Part shown: piece by piece, positions 3,279 to 54,736 of the stretch
How the letters are laid out: every line of letters begins with the position of its first letter
How positions within the stretch are numbered: position 1 is the first letter of the stretch
Assembly: GCA_964016885.1 (NCBI GenBank)
Contig: OZ024746.1
Location: forward strand, 93,558,001 to 93,622,000
Reading direction: 5' to 3'
DNA: 64,000 nucleotides
Source of the DNA: Eledone cirrhosa
Lineage: Eukaryota
The notes under the pieces: generated by a model
What the model was told of the DNA's origin: nothing
Databases searched by the model: none
What the model saw: the letters and a program-made list of their open reading frames with translations, nothing else
Translations under genes and position numbers: made by a program

Positions 3279-3770
3279 CAGCCCACACTGTAAAGTGGTT
3301 GTGTAGACGACACAACAAAAAGCACCCAGCCCACACTGTAAAGTGGTTGTGTAGACGACACAACAAAAGCACCCAGCCCACACTGTAAAGTGGTTGTGTA
3401 GACGACACAACAAAAAGCACCCAGCCCACACTGTAAAGTGGTTGTGTAGACGACACAACAAAAAGCACCCAGCCCACACTGTAAAGTGGTTGTGTAGACG
3501 ACACAACAAAAAGCACCCAGCCCACACTGTAAAGTGGTTGTGTAGACGACACAACAAAAAGCACCCAGCCCATACTGTAAAGTGGTTGTGTAGACGACAC
3601 AACAAAAAGCACCCAGCCCATACTGTAAAGTAGTTGTGTAGATGTCATGACAAAAAGCACCCAGCCTATACTGTAAAGTGGTTGTGTAGATGTCATGACA
3701 AAAAGCACCCAGCCTATACTGTAAAGTGGTTGTGTAGATGTCATGACAAAAAGCACACACTGTAAGTGTG
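3279..3770. repeat. 47-48-bp minisatellite expanded within a SINE
   Basis: ~10 units of cagcccacactgtaaagtggttgtgtagacgacacaacaaaaagcacc, followed by the SINE tail. Confidence 0.9.
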
Positions 3771-5422
3771 GTTGGCAATAGGAAGGGCATCGAACCATAG
3801 AAACCAAGCCAAAATTAACCCTGCGTGAGCAAAACCTGCTCCTCCGACCAGATCTCTCACAAAGGGACAGCCCGCCCTGCCCATGCTAGCATGGAAAATA
3901 GACATTAAATGATGATGGTGATGAATGCTGGGTACTGGAATAAATACTGCAAATTATTCTATTCAATGTTCTAATGACTTTGCTAATTCACTGAACACAT
4001 ACAAACACTCACACAATCATTTATTATTTTTAGTAGCAGAAAAACCACTCTTCGGGTGGTTTTCTGCTAGTCTGTGTAGTGTGTATAATATCAATATACA
4101 CACTACACAGGCTAGCAAATATATATGCATGTAAATAAAATCGTAATTGACAATATACACATAAATTGAACGAAGACTGTGTTACACTGTCTTATGTAAT
4201 CAGTAACGTAATCCATGATAGATTTAAAAAAAGACGATATTATATATAAACTGCATCAAGAGAAAATTAGCGATGGAAATATATGCGATTATAAGTGTTA
4301 TAATATAACGGCCATGTTGACATTTGACAATTTTAAAGAAGTGAATCTTTAACTAAGCTATAAAATATATTTAATCAACAACCACGAAATTTAGTAGATA
4401 AATTATGTAATATTCATTCATTATTTATTCAAATCCCGCCGAGGTTAACTTTGCCTTTCATCCTTACGGGGTCGATAAAATAAAGTACCAGTAATACACT
4501 GGGTAATTGCTGGCCTTGTGCCAAAAATAGAAACAATTATTTATTCAAAGTAATCCAACTTATTTTACAAACGGAGTAAAAAAAAATATTCTGGATGCAG
4601 TCGCGCACTCATTTCTTTATTATAGTTAGATTCCTGATTTTTCACATCCTTACACGCTGTGGTAAGAAACTCTCAGAAGAGCTGGACAGCAGAAGGTCTT
4701 AAGAGAAGAAACTCCCCACCTCAAGTGAGTGCTTCAGCCCTTAACTTCTTACACTCTAAAGGGACTGGTCTGCATCCAGGTCATGACTCCTGGGTACCCT
4801 TCTGCTGACATTTAGCCATTCGGAAATCGGGGACTTTTCTGTGTATTTAAACCGTATGGAGATTTTATTGACAGGATTTAGCTGGAATTCCTCTCCGATA
4901 TATATATAAGCCGAAGCTGAAGCATATAGATAATATGGCCCCACCTCCTCCCACTGCAAAGTGGTCGTAGAGGTTTCACCACAAAAAAACACCCAGTCCA
5001 CACTGTAAAGTGGACGCCATGGTAAAAAAGCACCCAGTACTCACTGTAAAGGAGGTTGGTGTTAGGAAGGGCATCCAGCTGTAGAAATCAAGCCAACATC
5101 AGTTCCCGTATGGGCAAGACAAGGTCACCCGACCTGGCATTGCCCACAACAGAACAACCTGTCTAACCCATGCTAGTATGGAAGAATGGAAATAAAACGG
5201 TGATGATGATGATGATATATATATATATCATCATCATTATCATCATCGTTTAATGTCTATCTTCCACGCTAGCATGGGTTAGACGGGAATTGTCCCACTT
5301 GAGGCAAGATTGGTCAGGTGACTGTCTCGCTCGTATAGGACTATCTGCCAGGTTTTCTACGGCTGGATGCCCTTCCTAACACCAACCACATTTAAAGTGA
5401 AATGAAACCACCAAATTTAAAC

Positions 5423-5484
<62 letters not shown>

Positions 5485-6866
5485 CAGGGAAAACAGGCAT
5501 TAATTGATGGTAATGGTGATATATAAATAAGGTTTAAAAGTAGTTTAACCCTTTACCAATTAAACCAGCTGTATCTGGCCAGAATTCTCTCACCTCTTTC
5601 TGTTCAAACCAGCTATAACCAGCCACTCATACTTATGTTAAGGTATAGTTCTCAAAATAAATAATATCAAGATCTTATAGATTCGCTATTATGCGAGATA
5701 ATTATGTGAAGTAAAGCCTTTACTGTGAGAATATATTAGTAAATATAGAGTAATGTAAACGTTAGACACACACACATAGACACATACCCACATATACACA
5801 CACATAGACACATATACACACACACATATATACACACACACACTAGCACACACACATGCACACACATAGACACACACACACACATAGACACGCACACACA
5901 GATACACACACACACATACACACATACATACATGTACACACATGCGAAATAGGTCAATGTTGGCAGCAGTTAAGGCTGGTGCTTGTATTGGTCGATGAGG
6001 TTGTGGTATGGCTTTGATTGGCTAAGAACATTTTACACCTTGTAGAAACTTCTTGAAAGCCACTCCACAAGTGACTGCCTGTCCAGTGGTATTATCAGGT
6101 CAAACAAAGTATGAGGATCGATATGGACTTTATCTTTATATGTCCAGATTAAGCAGCCATTGTTTGTTTTCATTGTCTTCCTAGCAATTGTTGTTGTTTG
6201 TTGAAATCTGGATTGGCATATTGATTTTTATTTCCCCCATTGATTGGTTATTTTCATTCTTCTTCTTCTTCTTCTTCTTTTTCTTCTTCTTCTTCTTCTT
6301 CTTCTTCTTCTTCTTCTTCTTCTTCTCATTAGGTTTAACCCCCCCCCCTCCCACACACACACACATACACAAATTCTATGTTTTTGTCCTGTGCCACCAT
6401 AATGTTTTTCTTGATGTAAATCCTTTTTGCCTAAATCAGAAATCATCATTATTTGCCTTTCATCCTTACGGGGTCGATAAAATAAAGTACCAGTAATGCA
6501 CTGGGATAATTGCTGACCTTGTGCCAAAAGTAGAAACAATTATTATTTACTCTGTCCATGCACCTACAGGCCAGCTAATTTGAGGAGGAGAGGGGTGCTC
6601 TCCCCGGGTGCCCTAGAAGCGCAGGGTGGTTTAGGATGGGTGGGGTACCTGAGTCACCCCAGGGTCGTCCACCCCCTATCGGGGAATTTATTTTGTCATA
6701 TTTATACATAGTTTATTCTATATTTTTATATCTTCACTGTTAAATTAGTTTTGCCATTGTGCACTTTTACTCGACCTTATTGTAACCCCCCCCCCCACTG
6801 TCCTTGTCTTTGTATTGTCCCCTACATGTCAGCCCTTGTGGCCAATAAATGAAACCATTATTATTA

Positions 6867-6928
<62 letters not shown>

Positions 6929-7134
6929 GGCGACCTACGTAGGAAATCGTATTATCCTGAGCTTCGCAAAGGTTTGTTGTTTTCAGTTGTTTCAAATTGG
7001 AAAATTTTTGTTGTTAAGTGTTTATAAGTTCACATATATTGCTTTCTGAAAAGGAAACTCAAAAAGATTGGGGCCTTGAGCCCAAAATTTAAACTTCTAT
7101 AATTATCAAACAAAAACTTTCTTTGAAAAAAAAC

Positions 7135-8790
7135 ATGGACGACTCACAGCCACACGAAGCTGACAGCCTTCCTCACAAACTATCACCTCACACCAACACC
7201 ACCATTGTAAATATTACTACGTTTGCCAACACTAAAAATATAGCAGTAGATATAATTTAAATTTGTCTCATGCAGACATTCATTTCCCGCCATTACAAAT
7301 AACTGCAGCTGTTAAAGCCGCCACCCCCACCACCACAGCGACAACAGAAACAAAAAAAAAATTATTATCCCGTGACATCGAAATGGATTCACCCAGAAAT
7401 GACTCATCCACACCGAACACCACTGACGCCACCAACACCACAACTGAAACTAAAAATAACAATAACAAAAATAACAATAACAACAACAGCAATAACAACA
7501 ATGAGAATAACACCAAAAACATCAACACCAGCGCAAATGTGTCGTTTGCCAAAGCAGCCAAGAAAAGCGAAATAATCCAGGTAAGCCAGGATGAATTAAA
7601 TGAAGCCAAGAGAATGGTAAAAAAAGATGGGTAAAGGGTCAGCTCCCCCCTCACATACACACACACCCCACCTAATAAAATGGAGCATCGGCGCCTATGC
7701 ACCGTGTCTTATCGGACGATAAACACAAAATCACGCCGAGTGGAACGGGCATCCGAGTCCCAAATACAAAAAGCTTTGGGACATGTGTAGGCAAAAAAAC
7801 CCCACATCAGACGTGGGCAGAAATATGGAACCGTGGATGTGTTCTTTGGAACACCACAGGAAGCCAGAGAGCACTCCATGGCCCCATTAAGAAGGAACCC
7901 ACCTAAAGGCTTTCTGCCCTCAGGCTAAAAAGTTGAGGCCACCTCTCTTACCCACCCCAGTGATCAACCATCAACACCACCAGCTGCAGAAATGGCAGCA
8001 ACAACTGTAGCAACAACAACAGAAACAACTGTAGCAGCAACAACCCCAGCAAATGTAGTAAAACCAACACCACCACCACCCACCGCACCAGAACTAGCAC
8101 CACGCCTCCACCATCCACCACGCCAAAACCAACGCCTGTGGAGGATTTTCCACTCCCCGACCTATCGCAACTGGAGACAGATTGTGACGACGAGGAGTGA
8201 GAAACTGTATCAGGAAAAAAGAAAGAAAGAAAAAGAACCCAAAAAAGAAAAAATCCGCTTCCTTCCCCCTCCAAAAACAAAATACAGGGGGAAACAAATA
8301 AACTAACAAACAAAATATTAGGACAGCTATGCCACCATCCACACCAGCATCACCAGCCCCATCACCACAAACACCAACACCATCACCATCATTAACCCCA
8401 CAACCACCATCACCAACACCACAAAAGTGACCAAAAAGCGAAACAGAAACAAACCCACAACAAAAGCAAACAAAACAAAACAACCAAAACGATACACACT
8501 ACACAGCATTAAATTTGAACAACAACCAATTATTACACTACGTCCAACACAACACCAGCATCACAGAAAAAGACTACACAACACGCCCAAAATTCACACC
8601 ACCTCCACACATACAAATCACTCGCATCACACAGAAAACGTACACGACACTAAAACAAAAATACCCCAAAGACATCGGAGACTTCCGACAAGCACTCTCC
8701 AGGGGGATTTATAAGGACATCCTTCCGGAGGAGGCCACAAGCAGTGAAAAGGATGGAGAAACCGTCCTTCCTCTACGAGAAGTAAGGTAA
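7135..8790 (+). mobile_element. Possible decayed LINE ORF1-like region
   Basis: A/C-rich, broken T/N/K/P-rich frames (SFAKAAKK) directly upstream of the endonuclease. Confidence 0.3.
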
Positions 8791-29992: not shown

Positions 29993-30063
29993 TTGACGTA
30001 CATGGGAGTCGAACCCACATCTTTGGTTATCCACACCACTGTGCTACCATTACACCAACACAT
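29993..30063 (-). other. tRNA-like (Pol III A/B box) sequence inside an inverted repeat
   Basis: RC: tgttggtgtaatggtagcacagtggtgtggataaccaaagatgtgggttcgactcccatg; flanked by arms ~29904-29961 and 30083-30149. Confidence 0.55.
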
Positions 30064-30146
30064 CACTGGGTTCTTAACCCCACTATCAGGGTAAATAATT
30101 CAGTTTAATTTCTTTAGTCAAAATACGGCGATAGCTTACATTTATA

Positions 30147-36289: not shown

Positions 36290-36965
36290 GTTATGGCCCC
36301 ATGACTCCAGCAACAGATAACTTTAACCACCAAACTACCTGGTTTCACTATTTGAGTGACACTTGATGTCAGGTACACTAGAGCACTCAAATAGCAGACA
36401 GATGTTGAGTGATAGTTTAACCATTCAGCTACTTGGCTTCAGATATATTTGAGTACAGATATACTAGATTACTTCAAGAGTAGATTCATGATATTGTTGT
36501 CCTAATATTACCAAATATAGTAAAACAAACTCACTGCTTGGTTTGATTTTCGCATCAGTTTCAGTATATATATCTTTTAATATTTCCATAAATAATTTAG
36601 CTGGTAATCAATGTTTATCCTTGATTGACCAACAGTTTAAATATAAATATAATTTATCAAAGTTCTTTCGTCACACATTTCTGTGACATCTTCAGTGATT
36701 ATCGCTGTGTTTCCTCCCGTTGTGTTTCTATAACAATATATTTTCAACTCACGATTTCATATCAAAACCTTACAAAACAAATACATCGCTGCCAGATGAA
36801 TACTTTACCATTCAGCCACATAACTTCCGGTAAACTAGAACACTCAAAGAGCAAACTGTAGTTGAGTAACACTTTAGCCACATGTCTTCCGGTAAACTAT
36901 ATCACTCAAAGAGCAGACTGAAGTTGAGTGACACTTCAGCTATATGACTTCCAGTAGAACACTGA
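36290..36965. repeat. Degenerate ~59-bp tandem repeat
   Basis: Recurring acttccggtaaactag..cactcaaagagcagactg..gttgagtgacac, clearest at 36810-36965. Confidence 0.5.
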
Positions 36966-41973: not shown

Positions 41974-41979
<6 letters not shown>

Positions 41980-42334
41980 ATGCTTTGGGAGGGTCATGTT
42001 GCCAATAAGAAACACACGCACCAGTTGCTTTCACTTCAATTTATTATAAATTAAATTTATAAATTTCCGGTTAGTTGGTTGGTTCCACAACCAGACGATT
42101 GTTCATATATTGTCAAAGAATGTGTGACGAAAGAACTTTGACAATATATGAACAATCGTCTGGTTGTGGAACCAACCAACCAACCGGAAATTTATAAATT
42201 TAATTTATAATAAATTGAAGTGAAAGCAACAGGTGCGTGTGTTTCTTATTGGCAACATGACCCTCCCAAAGTATAACAATATCGGTTTCAACACACGTTT
42301 TCAGATAAAGAATTTTGCTAAACAAATTCAGAAA

Positions 42335-42337
<3 letters not shown>
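41974..42337 (+). mobile_element. Foldback 3' terminus of the 52.7-kb Penelope-like family
   Basis: ~145-bp arms 41974-42118 and 42136-42281; sense strand starts at tgtgtgacGAAA, inside stem II. Confidence 0.75.
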
Positions 42338-42387
<50 letters not shown>

Positions 42388-42391
<4 letters not shown>

Positions 42392-42559
42392 AAAAAGTAT
42401 GACCCCGACGGCAGAGCTGGACTGTCCAGAAATAGCCGTCGAAACGGCTTGAGCTCTGCCGTCGGGGTCATACTTTTTCCTATTTCCCACTCTACTACTC
42501 TAAGTATTGAGTACTCTAGTGCGTTATGGTCCATCTGGTTCCTTACTACATTTCCTTTG

Positions 42560-42604
<45 letters not shown>

Positions 42605-42789
42605 AACGAGTAGGACCCCGACGGCTGAGCTCAAGCCGTTTCGACGGCTAATTCTGGACAGAATTGGCCGTCGAAACGGCTTGAGCTCAGCCGTCGGGGT
42701 CCTACTCGTTCCTATTACCCACTCTACTCTTAAGTATTGAGTACTTTGGTGCGTTATGGTCCACCTGGTTCCTTACCACATTTCCTTCG

Positions 42790-42791
<2 letters not shown>
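42388..42791 (+). mobile_element. Two tandem foldback elements with GAAAcggc..gccgUC hammerhead 3' halves
   Basis: Copies 42388-42561 and 42600-42791 separated by (TA)n; other copies at 40375-40570, 44740-44810, 48836-48994 and 50619-50703. Confidence 0.7.
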
Positions 42792-42840
<49 letters not shown>

Positions 42841-45294: not shown

Positions 45295-45511
45295 AATATG
45301 GTTTTATAAATATAGTTTCCACTTATTAATATCATTGATATTATACTCCAGAAAAACTGTAGAGTGCTTCGAATCTGTCATAAATAAATTTGTTGAATAA
45401 CCAACAAATTGAATATCTCTTTGCTTATATATATATCCGGGAGCTTCCAACCGACATGGTCGCATTCTTTAAGGGTATGTCAATATTTGTTTATAAAACT
45501 GATCTATATTA

Positions 45512-45576
45512 TATTTTATCTGATGAAAGCGCACCATAATTTGCTTTGGTGTCCTTGAAATATGTATAATGACATA
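45512..45576 (+). ncRNA. Minimal type I hammerhead ribozyme
   Basis: tattttat-CTGATGA-aagcgcacca...tggtgtcctt-GAAA-tatgta-TA-atgacata. Confidence 0.7.
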
Positions 45577-45755
45577 AATATGGTTTTATAAATATAGTTT
45601 CCATTTGTTAATATATTGTATTTTTACTCCAAAAATGTGTTGAGTGCTTTATATCAGTTATAAAAATATTTGCAAATTAAATATAACTTCTACATATATA
45701 TATATATATATGGAATCCTACTACTTAAAATAAAACTTCGCTGGAGATATATATA

Positions 45756-50601: not shown

Positions 50602-51773
50602 CAAAGGAATTGTGGTAAGGAACCAGATGGGCCATAACGCACCAGAGTCTAAAAATAGCCGTCGAAACGGCTTGAGCTCTGCCGTTGGGGTCATACCTTT
50701 TCATATATATATATATAATGCATTTCCTACCACAGACATGCTGTTGCAGTATAAAGTTTCGCTTTCCATTGATTTTTCCCTGTAAATAGTTATTTTTCCA
50801 AAGCTACCCATACTTTCAATCCTGTTTGTCATTTGTGTAATTATATCCCTGAAAACATTAAAATATCATTTTTTAAATCTTGACCCATTTCCACGTGTCA
50901 TTGATATATTAACTGTAGGGTTTCTTTTATGCAAACCATTAATTTATCAAAACGCCTGGAGACTTTCGACGGAATGCAAAAGTTGTGTCATATCTGCTAA
51001 ATGCTGTATAAACTGAATTTTGTCAACTCTCTGAATTTCATCAGTGCGTTGACCTGTGATCAAAGATATTCCAGCCGTGACTATCTCGTCTGTTTTATTT
51101 TTCAGACATCCTGTCTATTAAGACTACATTATCCAATGTTACATCATTCCTCATTTATGACGGTGGGGTGTGATAGGGGAATGATTTGGTTGTTGTTACT
51201 AGCAGGTCGAGTGGCATCATAGATGCTTACTCGTTTGCTCGTCTCCAAGCTGCTTGTGAAAGTGGAATGTTTAGTCTAATTATTATGTTACTACATTATT
51301 GATCCCGAGTTCAAATCTGCTGTCCCATCTTGTAATTTGTTATCTTTAGACGGGTCGTTTTAAACCACATACTTCATCTATAATTACAAGGTGGTATGTA
51401 TAATTCTCGTGCGCCAGAAGCTACAGAAACCGGTTTTTTTAAGGATTACTATTTGACTATTAACTAAGATTGCTGGTCTTTTAGGGGTTATCTGAACTGT
51501 TAATCTCACCTTTTGTATTATATGTACACTCTTAAGGTGTTGGATTGGCAGTATCAGTAGAACGTTACTCAACATGATTTGTGGCATGTAGTTACGGCTC
51601 TTTACTTTCTGAGTTCAAATTCAGCCGAAGTTAGATTTAACTTTCATTCTTACGGGGTTGATAAAATAAAGTACCAGTAATGCAATGAGGTCGATTTAAT
51701 CGACTTTCTCCTCTCCACCAAAATTGTTGGCCATGTGCCTAAATCAGAAATCATTATTATTATTATTATCTAA

Positions 51774-51962
51774 GGGCGGTGGATTGGCACTATCGGTAGA
51801 TGGTCGGACGCCATGCTTTGACGCATAGAGTTACGGCCCTTGCCATTCTGAGTTCAAATCTCGCCGAGGTTAACTTTGCCTTTCATCCTTATGGGGTCGA
51901 TAAAATAAAGTACCAGTAATGCACTGGGTAATTGCTGGCCTTGTGCCAATAGTAGAAATAAT
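51774..51962 (+). mobile_element. tRNA-derived SINE (gcctttcatccttacggggtcgataaa central domain), representative copy
   Basis: A/B-box-like head (gagttcaaatc); more than 15 copies, e.g. 14299-14488, 23574-23753, 31785-31968, 34768-34956, 56623-57431 (four in tandem) and 60502-60685. Confidence 0.85.
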
Positions 51963-52362: not shown

Positions 52363-52861
52363 AGTACAGATTAAAAGTTTAAGAAATACATTTCTGCGTT
52401 CAGCCTCACAGAAGATTTCGCTTGGGGTGAAAGCTGAAACTTGTTGCTTAAACTTTTAATCTGTACTAATAATAAATATTAGCCCTACAGACTTATATAT
52501 ACTTATATATGCAACCCTTTTCGAATTACAGGTTTTAAATAGCAGAGTGACCTTCTCCTAGAGAGATATAAAAAACATACATACTTACACAGACGCAAAT
52601 CTTTTGATGAAAGCAAAAGTTGTTTGAAGTTTGGTGTATCGAAACAAAATGTCGACGGATCGATTTTCAAATGACTGGAAATTATATAAAGATAATTCGT
52701 TTTTGAATTTATTTTGCGAGATTTCTTATCTGAAAACGTATATTGTTATATTTTGGGAGGGTCATGTTGGCAATAAAAACACACGCACCTGTTGGCCTTC
52801 GGTTCAATTTATTATAAATTTCCGGTTGGTTGGTTCGATAACGGAAGGTTGTTTATATAAT

Positions 52862-52904
52862 GTCAAATCTCTTTCGTCACACAGTCTGCAACCTCCTCAG
52901 TGAC
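52862..52904 (-). ncRNA. Hammerhead ribozyme in the 3' region of a Penelope-like element
   Basis: RC: gtca-CTGAGGA-g-gttgca(gactg)tgtgac-GAAA-gaga-TT-tgac. Confidence 0.75.
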
Positions 52905-53146
52905 TAGATTTTTATTTTGTTCGTTTCTCCTTTGTTCTGTTCTACACCATTTTGTTTTTGTGTGTTGTGTGTTGTGTGCTTAGTTTGCGCATGCGTTACA
53001 TCCGGATGTGTGCGTGTGTTTTTCTATATTTATTTGTTTTTTTTTAATTGTCACTAATTGGTTGTTTGTTCTATCTGTGTGTGTATGATTTGTTTTGTAA
53101 GTTTGTTAGTTTGGTTTTTGTGTGTCTGTATGTCTTTAGCTTGTCC

Positions 53147-53369
53147 TTAATTACTAGTTGTGATGTTGCTATTCCACTCATGTTTTCTGTTTAATTTTGG
53201 TTGGAGTTCGTTTACATTTGTTGACTCTGTGATTTGCTTGAACATTGCATCTTTTCTGTGTGTGGATATAATTTTTATCTCTCTCTCTCTCTAATGTGCC
53301 CATATGTTCTACTTTGGCATATTGGTGGAGTACTGATGAGTTTTTCCCATCCTGGAGTTCTCGCCAGTG

Positions 53370-53372
<3 letters not shown>
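53147..53372 (-). pseudogene. C-terminus of a Penelope-like element GIY-YIG endonuclease (frameshifted)
   Basis: Manual translation with one shift in a (GA)n run: [28 protein letters not shown]../[43 protein letters not shown]; resembles the EH..S.L..H..RQI.E...LN.K.EW tail of PLE endonucleases. Confidence 0.65.
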
Positions 53373-53438
<66 letters not shown>

Positions 53439-53488
53439 TTATCCGATATTTACATTGCTTTATTGTGCTACAATAAAACGCACCTCCT

Positions 53489-53564
<76 letters not shown>

Positions 53565-53686
53565 AGGAGGTGCGTTTTATTGTAGCACAATAAAGCAATG
53601 TAAATATCGGATAAGTAGCACTCTACAGTTTGTAGGACTGGAGTATAAATAATATAAGATCAAAAGATGGTTAAAAGAGTTCCAAG

Positions 53687-53757: not shown

Positions 53758-54736
53758 GGGAGACATGATATGAAGGTTAAAAAACACTTGTGAATAGTGA
53801 AGTGTTAAATCAACATATGTATATATAAAGATATAATTGAAAATAATTGTTTCTACTTTAGGCACAAGGCCAGCAATTACCCAGTGCATTACTGGTACTT
53901 TATTTTATCGACCCCGTAAGGATGAAAGGCAAAGTCAACCTCGGCGGGATTTGAACTCAGATCAACTATGCTGAATGACCTGTAGTTAGAGAACTCTCTG
54001 GAATGACCAGAGTGAGTGAGTAAGATAGACAGCGTGGAGAACTCAATGGATAACTATTGGTCATTTCAGAGAGTTATCTAACTACTGGGAGAAGGAGAGA
54101 GAGACAGACAGACAGAGGCAGGAAGAGAGAGAGAGAGTGAGAAAGTGACAGAGTGAGAGAGAGAGGGGGGGAAATAAAGGAGGAGAAGAGGGGATGAGAG
54201 CAAGCGAAAGATGGTATATTATCTACGACATATGGGACATACCTTGCTTACTTGGGGTTAACTTTGCCTTTCATCCTTACGGGATCGATACAATAAAGTA
54301 CCAGTAATGCACTGGAGTAATTGCTGGCCTTGTGCCAAAAGTAGGAATAATTATTACATCATTGTTATATCCGGCTGTCCCTTTATATAGTTGATGTAAG
54401 GTGGCACTTTTAAGATGTATGTTTTTCATTTATATTTGGTGGCGGTGATAAAAAAACCTTTCTATCTATACATGCCTATATATGTTACACCAGATTGTGC
54501 AACCCCGTCTTAGTAGTGAAGTTATTCTTACCCTCGCCCAGACCATAGATTATCTCCCCATTCCCACCTTAACTTCAATTATTTACTCTGTTTCCTTCTA
54601 TCAACTTATGCAAGTGAGGGAGGGGAGCAGGAGAAATGTTCCTGTCTCCCTGTCTTTCTTCTCATTCAGAAGAAATTCTATATCTTGCCTGCCAGCTTCC
54701 TTTCGGGGCATGATGAAATATCGGTTGATATATAAC

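What the first reader, a model, noticed from the sequence alone, without database searches (positions are those of the whole stretch)
52687..53372. Penelope-type GIY-YIG endonuclease tail joined to a hammerhead: the link to the parent element
A minus-strand frame missed by the ORF track (frameshift in (GA)n) reads EH...SSVLHQY...H...KDAMFKQITES...LNRKHEW, resembling the C-terminus of PLE endonucleases. About 240 nt downstream lies an intact hammerhead, followed by the tail also found in the foldback at 41974-42337. This ties at least one mini-element family to a protein-coding PLE.
Basis: partly seen in the sequence, partly recalled or inferred. Interest (0 to 1): 0.75.

Follow-up and report, generated by a model that had tools for sequence, protein, structure and literature searches.

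The report
Penelope retrotransposon stump, unusual enzyme lineage
This is the dead tail end of a very abundant Penelope-type jumping gene in an octopus-like genome, and its full-length relatives encode a reverse transcriptase with an extra 70-residue insert at the spot where telomerase has one, which may mark a branch of these elements not yet described.

Summary
Confirmed. 52691-53372 (minus) is a 5'-truncated, frameshifted copy of a high-copy Penelope-like element (PLE): last 75 codons of a GIY-YIG endonuclease, then a pLTR with a minimal hammerhead and the PLE "tail". Longer copies carry a telomerase-like RT; one locus of a sister subfamily has an unbroken 1235-codon ORF between two pLTRs. 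Two corrections: the hammerhead here keeps its core but has lost the helix III pair; and the 41974 foldback is a truncated-plus-inverted insertion of the sister subfamily, not a fixed mini-element (foldback spans run 202-1521 nt). Peptide, hammerhead, tail, TA targeting and inversion are all known PLE traits. Beyond that: (1) the RT has about 70 extra residues between motifs A and B, which the literature I could search denies to C-terminal-endonuclease PLEs; (2) 13 of 13 foldbacks in an unselected sample pair one short with one long end; (3) short copies' 5' ends cluster 56-74 nt before the hammerhead, likely the RNA's start. Clade placement is open: no named reference set was available. The scan noted octopus PLE foldbacks before on other DNA; none of the listed notes mentions the RT insert.

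The parts
53373..53437 (.). (TA)n run at the 5' truncation junction; likely the insertion target
   Evidence: 43 of 45 element 3' ends in the unselected sample are followed by TA-rich sequence
53147..53372 (-). Last 75 codons (with stop) of the PLE ORF: C-terminal half of the GIY-YIG endonuclease with the catalytic H, both H of the CCHH motif, E and N; the invariant R before E is K here; +1 frameshift in (GA)n at 53292-53278
52905..53146 (-). AC-rich 3' UTR / upstream part of the pLTR; the place where short copies of the sister subfamily start maps to about 52950-52970 (inferred RNA 5' end)
52862..52904 (-). Minimal type I hammerhead: stem I 4 bp, core, one bulged base, stem II 6 bp, helix III reduced to a palindromic stub that is mutated in this copy
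   Evidence: exact 35-nt family motif occurs 6411 times in the genome, control 0
52743..52765 (-). Start codon (52765) and first 23 nt of the ORF, ending at the 'short' 3' end used by many copies
   Evidence: ORF of full-length copies begins at this ATG
52691..52742 (-). PLE 'tail' (59 nt in the family, 12 nt deleted here) = ORF codons 8-28; gives the 'long' 3' end
41974..42337 (.). Foldback insertion of sister subfamily B: inverted short-end arm (41974-42118) joined to direct long-end arm (to 42337) inside the hammerhead, flanked by (TA)n; no complete hammerhead
36647..36698 (-). 52-nt isolated fragment of the subfamily B hammerhead

Best explanation
The stretch is a dead, 5'-truncated copy of an autonomous Penelope-like retrotransposon, likely made when the element's RT began copying at one of two sites just inside the ORF start of a tandem transcript, primed at a nick in (TA)n, and stopped after 686 nt inside the endonuclease region. 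Shown: unit about 4.07-4.08 kb, pLTR-ORF-pLTR, ORF starting inside the pLTR 135 nt after the hammerhead core, RT then C-x4-C-x2-C linker then GIY-YIG; two 3' ends at ORF +23 and +82; TA flanks; 5' ends from under 100 nt to full length. Inferred, by analogy with the anole PLE tested in vitro (PMC11167929): the two ends are two RT start sites; both target strands are cut and extended; one insertion uses one site on each strand, and the two cDNAs are joined head to head at short homologies, which gives foldbacks such as 41974. Inferred: the abundant 260-320 nt copies are run-off products that reach the RNA 5' end in the upstream pLTR. The hammerhead likely works only as a dimer or with protein help, and in this copy is likely impaired.
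For: Genome search: 7244 first-look candidates, 40 scored, 83-88% identity. Upstream of the same point other copies read linker Cys motif, VVY..C....C..YIG, and RT motifs. 2 of 14 fetched 5'-complete loci give stop-free frames of 1230-1235 codons from the pLTR ATG, one fully in frame and one with a compensated shifted stretch; the window peptide is 72-74% identical to their C-termini. 60 homologues keep C-x4-C-x2-C, C, Y, C, YxG, R, H, H, H, R, E, N invariant. AlphaFold models: RT pLDDT 86.8, top five Foldseek hits all telomerase RT, VIA Z 13.3; endonuclease best match I-TevI, Z 10.3, rmsd 2.1 over 88 residues. Foldbacks pair short+long in 13 of 13 (hammerhead-pattern sample, 28 loci after dropping 2 duplicates), 7 of 7 (endonuclease-query sample), 7 of 8 (single-arm sample). 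In 5 of 17 subfamily-B pairs the two arms differ by a 16-20-column duplication that is common in the family, as if copied from two templates. 10 of 16 arms that start within 300 nt upstream of the hammerhead start at -74 to -56 (binomial 1e-7 after correcting for 16 bins, bin chosen after seeing the data). Fixed differences between subfamilies fall on N7, loop 2, loop 3 and H17 only while the endonuclease DNA differs by 18%.
Against: No activity was measured: cleavage, priming sites and RNA start are inferred from insertion ends. One foldback has two short ends (L096). The arm difference could be slippage. Pfam scores for RT and GIY-YIG stay below curated cut-offs and the PDB has no sequence relative. 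No unbroken ORF was found for the window's own subfamily A (one search shows only broken frames among 30 loci). The short-versus-long tree has no strongly supported branch. No target-site duplication can be read in TA runs.
Confidence: 0.92

Rival explanations
1. The short hammerhead-bearing copies and foldbacks form a separate non-autonomous mini-element (retrozyme- or SINE-like) family that is transcribed on its own and moved in trans by this PLE; the fragment is the bridge to its parent.
For: A recurrent short class exists (10 of 16 arms start in a 19-nt band; 10 of 16 single-arm loci similar); six other foldbacks of 351-410 nt resemble 41974; animal retrozymes are proposed to derive from pLTRs (bioRxiv 10.64898/2026.07.22.740005).
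Against: Junctions differ between those foldbacks and cluster on the hammerhead's own short repeats; spans are continuous 202-1521 nt; short and long copies are mixed in the tree, 16 changes against 19.0 shuffled, 43-47 of 500 shuffles as low; no tandem arrays of a short unit were seen among the loci examined; the 41974 copy has no hammerhead core.
Confidence: 0.15
2. The parent is simply a Nematis-clade PLE that gained a long fingers insert, rather than a separate clade.
For: Short linker (5-9 residues between CxxC and the next C in 93 of 102 homologues) and the R..I.EA..I....P.LN end match the Nematis rows, not the Neptune rows, of Craig et al. Figs S2 and S7; a Nematis-like canonical PLE is the only distant hit of the endonuclease search (P0300, E 3e-6).
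Against: With the insert left out, 16 long-insert RTs are separated from 21 canonical-spacing RTs (Nematis-like and Penelope-like by my motif labels) by a branch of about 1.2 changes per site, SH-aLRT 100; Nematis-like rows sit with the other canonical ones. The tree is unrooted and holds no named reference.
Confidence: 0.3
3. The peptide is a chance reading of A-rich DNA next to a non-coding repeat.
For: No Pfam hit for either half; A/C-rich composition.
Against: 40.9 bits against non-octopus homologues versus 7.6 for shuffles; contiguous RT upstream in many copies.
Confidence: 0.01

Closest known systems
Canonical C-terminal-endonuclease PLEs, Nematis clade (Craig et al. 2021, PMC8557442; passages, section 12, supplement parts 53-55 and 57-59 read; figures not seen)
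   Same: Single ORF RT then GIY-YIG; CX2-5CxxC linker, short as in Nematis; CCHH motif; R, H, E, N; pLTRs, partial tandems, inverted 5' copy, tail at one end, TA bias, hammerhead in pLTR.
   Different: Motif A to motif B distance 135-136 (median 136 in 67 homologues) against 63-67 in canonical PLEs (65 and 67 counted by hand from Fig S1); ORF 1050-1235 aa; motif B reads GAIG/GPIG; tail 59 nt rather than 30-40.
Naiad/Chlamys PLEs and telomerase RT (insertion in fingers domain, IFD)
   Same: An insert at the same place between motifs A and B; the RT model's best structural matches are TERTs.
   Different: Naiad/Chlamys have an N-terminal endonuclease and lack canonical hammerheads; their insert is about 20-40 aa (A-B about 91 in one Naiad, hand count from Fig S1); human TERT 122 by the same count; this one 135. 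Structural likeness of the insert to the TERT IFD was not tested.
Poseidon from Anolis carolinensis, PAc (Frangieh et al. 2024, PMC11167929; abstract and main text read)
   Same: Two 3' ends inside the ORF start that bracket the tail; AT-rich targets; hammerhead at the pLTR-ORF junction.
   Different: PAc is Penelope/Poseidon clade without the Cys linker; its ORF starts within the hammerhead and RT starts near +111-118, here ATG is downstream of the hammerhead and ends are +23 and +82.
Minimal hammerheads of metazoan PLEs (Cervera and De la Pena 2014, PMC4209133; parts 1-2 of 4 read)
   Same: Type I, stem I 4 bp, long stem II, bulged base after A9, G10.1-C11.1, tiny palindromic helix III.
   Different: Nothing of kind; cleavage triplet CUU or CUA in the family; helix III broken in this copy.
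Animal non-LTR retrozymes (Li et al., bioRxiv 10.64898/2026.07.22.740005; parts 1-3 of 5 read)
   Same: Short hammerhead-bearing pLTR derivatives.
   Different: Defined there as tandem repeats with a hammerhead in each unit; here copies are dispersed truncations and foldbacks of variable length.
Adineta vaga Penelope families (Arkhipova et al. 2013, PMC3846280; passages read)
   Same: pLTR holds the first codons of the ORF, tail extends them; inverted pLTR; long Asn-rich in-frame insert in the ORF.
   Different: Those are Perere/Penelope-type; the Asn-rich block lies upstream of the RT here.

Membership tests
EN+ Penelope-like elements | Single ORF with RT and GIY-YIG endonuclease | tested here: met
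   1235-codon open frame in L156; models match TERT and I-TevI
EN+ Penelope-like elements | Telomerase-related RT with DK, RT1-7 motifs | tested here: met
   Motifs; top five Foldseek hits are TERTs
EN+ Penelope-like elements | CCHH motif and catalytic R, H, E, N in the endonuclease | tested here: met
   Invariant or nearly invariant columns in 60 homologues
EN+ Penelope-like elements | pLTRs, partial tandems, inverted 5' copy, optional tail | tested here: met
EN+ Penelope-like elements | Hammerhead motif in the pLTR | tested here: met
   self-cleavage itself not testable
Nematis clade | Short CX2-5CxxC linker before GIY-YIG | tested here: met
   against Craig Figs S2, S7
Nematis clade | No insertion in fingers (canonical A-B spacing) | tested here: not met
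   135-136 versus 67
Nematis clade | RT groups with named Nematis elements | tested here: inconclusive
   Separate from motif-labelled Nematis-like rows in an unrooted tree without named references
Neptune clade | Long linker between CxxC and GIY (about 25-30 aa) and GLN-type C-terminus | tested here: not met
   Linker 5-13 aa in 102 of 102 matched homologues; Neptune rows
Penelope/Poseidon clade | No Cys linker | tested here: not met
   C-x4-C-x2-C invariant
Naiad/Chlamys | N-terminal endonuclease | tested here: not met
   Endonuclease is C-terminal
Hydra clade | CCHH absent, CxCX5C linker, MGSYDG-type motif B | tested here: not met
Non-LTR retrozyme | Tandem units each with a hammerhead, fixed monomer | tested here: not met
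   Variable spans and junctions; genome-wide tandem search not done
Non-LTR retrozyme | Circular RNA and self-cleavage | not testable with these tools
   No RNA holder listed
TERT-type IFD | Insert folds like the telomerase IFD | tested here: inconclusive
   Insert is confidently modelled as four short helices (pLDDT 85-97) but the searches give only overall ranges

The most novel reading that the evidence does not exclude
The parent belongs to an undescribed deep clade of Penelope-like elements, spread through marine invertebrates (octopus, a jellyfish, many unnamed marine assemblies), that joins a C-terminal Nematis-type endonuclease to an RT with a fingers insert longer than human telomerase's; it is recent and still unbroken in this genome, and its insertions record a rule that each target strand is primed at a different RNA site on a different template, with strong-stop-like short copies marking the RNA start.
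Probability: 0.4. Interest if true: 0.65.

Novelty: new variant of a known kind. Interest (0 to 1): 0.42.

Why it matters
The fragment alone is ordinary transposon debris. Its family matters for two reasons. First, the insertion in fingers is used as an argument in how PLEs and telomerase are related, and is stated to be absent from canonical PLEs; a large C-terminal-endonuclease group with a telomerase-sized insert would need a place in that tree, and an unbroken natural ORF exists to study. Second, thousands of young insertions make the unexplained PLE foldback/tail structure countable: the one-short-one-long rule and the clustered 5' ends give direct predictions for an in vitro assay of the kind already working for an anole PLE.

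Tried and rejected
Rfam scan of the window and of the locus: no hammerhead family hit. Free folding: z 0.06. Pfam on the two peptide halves: nothing; RT and GIY-YIG only below cut-off in longer copies. PDB by sequence: no PLE or TERT relative; weak bacterial RT hits only. Foldseek for the endonuclease model: no match at E 0.001, I-TevI best at 3.6e-3. Protein atlas gave no result. First tree kept the insert columns and two mis-cut long rows; replaced, which left out P0366, P0373, P0075, P0339, P0343 and P0129. Literature searches for a described long-insert C-terminal PLE group and for pLTR start sites or two-template foldbacks found none; subscription papers (Arkhipova 2006), Repbase/Dfam entries, Craig's Fig. 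8 and the bioRxiv supplements could not be seen and may hold this group. The Octopus vulgaris repeat paper lists Penelope-like families without clade or ribozyme detail (PMC13282606, passages). The window's second hammerhead family could not be tied to an ORF. Rejected: fixed mini-element for the 41974 foldback; Neptune, Poseidon, Naiad, Hydra membership.

Full report
Observation. Against 28 other copies the break is a one-base gain where an AG-rich stretch turned into pure (GA)n. Read through with X, the 72 residues score 40.9 bits (E 6.6e-12) on a profile built from 65 homologues with octopus rows removed; 1000 shuffles reach at most 7.6 bits and none of the other window frames passes. The hammerhead starts 243 nt after the stop. 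It has every invariant core base and full stems I and II, but C16.2 is changed, which removes the helix III pair and the predicted dimer duplex. In 49 hammerheads from copies picked by their coding part, 20 are fully intact by the same test, and decay is about even over core, stems and loop 2, as expected after insertion. The tail is shared with both arms of the 41974 foldback at 75-77% of columns.

Host and copy number. The window lies in a 3.0-Gb assembly; the best named homologue is an Octopus vulgaris protein at 67%, so the host is octopus-like (inference). The 686 nt give 7244 first-look candidates; an exact 35-nt hammerhead motif occurs 6411 times, reversed control 0.

Parent element. 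Walking upstream through copies gave the linker C-x4-C-x2-C, the GIY-YIG core with two internal Cys, then RT motifs, then a long Asn/Thr-rich N-terminal part that begins at an ATG inside the pLTR. A search with that 5' part returned many near-equal copies; of 14 fetched, L156 has an unbroken 1235-codon frame between two pLTRs, L159 a stop-free frame with a compensated shifted stretch, and the hammerhead-to-hammerhead unit is 4.07-4.08 kb. Five near-complete copies are 96-97% identical. These belong to a younger subfamily B; the window copy belongs to an older subfamily A (91% to A, 82% to B over the endonuclease DNA), for which only broken frames were seen. The RT model (pLDDT 86.8) matches telomerase RT best; the endonuclease model matches I-TevI, T4 EndoII and UvrC GIY-YIG domains.

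The foldback. 41974-42337 is subfamily B (other loci 94-99% identical to its direct arm). Its arms meet inside the hammerhead, so it has no core. Six other foldbacks of similar size have different or independently formed junctions that fall on the hammerhead's own short repeats. In a sample taken only by the hammerhead pattern, foldbacks span 202-1521 nt. It is thus a truncated and inverted insertion, the arrangement Craig et al. describe for PLEs in general.

Mechanistic traces. Copies end at ORF +23 or +82 and run into TA repeats (43 of 45 ends). In the anole PLE the two ends that bracket the tail are the two RT start sites and both target strands are cut and extended. Here foldbacks pair one short and one long end in 13 of 13, 7 of 7 and 7 of 8 cases in three samples; the seven found with the foldback as query are not counted as evidence. 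In 5 of 17 subfamily-B pairs the arms differ by a common duplication, which fits two templates but could be slippage. Of 16 arms that begin within 300 nt upstream of the hammerhead, 10 begin at -74 to -56. That band holds a motif resembling a YY1 site with an NRF1-like motif upstream (names recalled, no call), so it is likely the RNA start and these copies are run-off products of the upstream pLTR. They do not form their own lineage in a low-resolution tree. This short class is the kernel of truth in the 'mini-element' idea.

Classification. Architecture is canonical C-terminal EN+ PLE. The linker and endonuclease end look Nematis-like, not Neptune-like, when read against Craig's alignments. 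But the distance from motif A to motif B is 135-136 in this family and has median 136 (range 95-148) in the 67 of 248 stored proteins where my patterns found all three motifs, against 63-67 in canonical-type PLEs. By hand count from Fig S1 Penelope is 65, Nematis 67, one Naiad 91, human TERT 122. Craig et al. state that canonical PLEs lack the insert, that Naiad/Chlamys have a shorter one than TERT and that Coprina has it sporadically. The insert is confidently folded in the model. With it removed, the long-insert RTs still form one side of a long branch (SH-aLRT 100) against Nematis-like and Penelope-like RTs; labels are mine, by motif, and the tree lacks Neptune, Coprina, Athena, Naiad, Hydra and TERT, so it shows distinctness, not position. 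The group is large: 1747 representatives at E 1e-30 (which may include other PLEs), full-length members 1050-1200 aa, one from a jellyfish. My searches did not find it described, but key sources were out of reach.

Verdict. Observation confirmed, with the hammerhead partly damaged; PLE parent found; mini-element reading weakened. Ordinary as a locus, moderately interesting as an entry to a possibly undescribed PLE lineage and to countable insertion rules. Earlier scan notes on other octopus DNA reached the same reading of foldbacks; none matched this sequence.

Noticed in passing
window 45520(+), 55480(+), 53749(-), 45121(-), 30551(-): Further hammerhead motifs unrelated to this family, with AT-rich stem I. 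The 45430-45620 one has many 98-99% identical copies, two alternative 3' ends and frequent inverted arms; no ORF was linked within 1.5 kb in 20 loci.
   Followed up: partly
G000 C1:311371476 and about 57 other places (L185-L204): A second PLE family with canonical motif spacing and many stop-free frames near 905 codons, often in pairs; apparently young.
   Followed up: partly
L067 oriented 3340-7402: A subfamily A unit followed directly by a truncated subfamily B unit in tandem, so tandems can be chimeric.
   Followed up: no
window 53438-53610: Palindrome with arms around (CA)n(TA)n(TG)n immediately upstream of the fragment; may be another element's foldback end.
   Followed up: no
window 53850-53960, 54250-54330, 51600-51960: Several copies of a common short interspersed repeat, one inverted pair; the same repeat interrupts the PLE ORF in L062.
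   Followed up: no
window 42390-42800: Two related short inverted-repeat elements between (TA)n runs right after the foldback.
   Followed up: no
L171 oriented 45-416: A third, more distant subfamily of the long-insert PLE.
   Followed up: no
L156 ORF residues about 245-435: Asn/Thr/His-rich in-frame block upstream of the RT, absent from non-octopus homologues inspected, like the Asn-rich inserts of rotifer Penelopes.
   Followed up: no
window 29994-30064 (-): tRNA-like Rfam match above gathering score.
   Followed up: no
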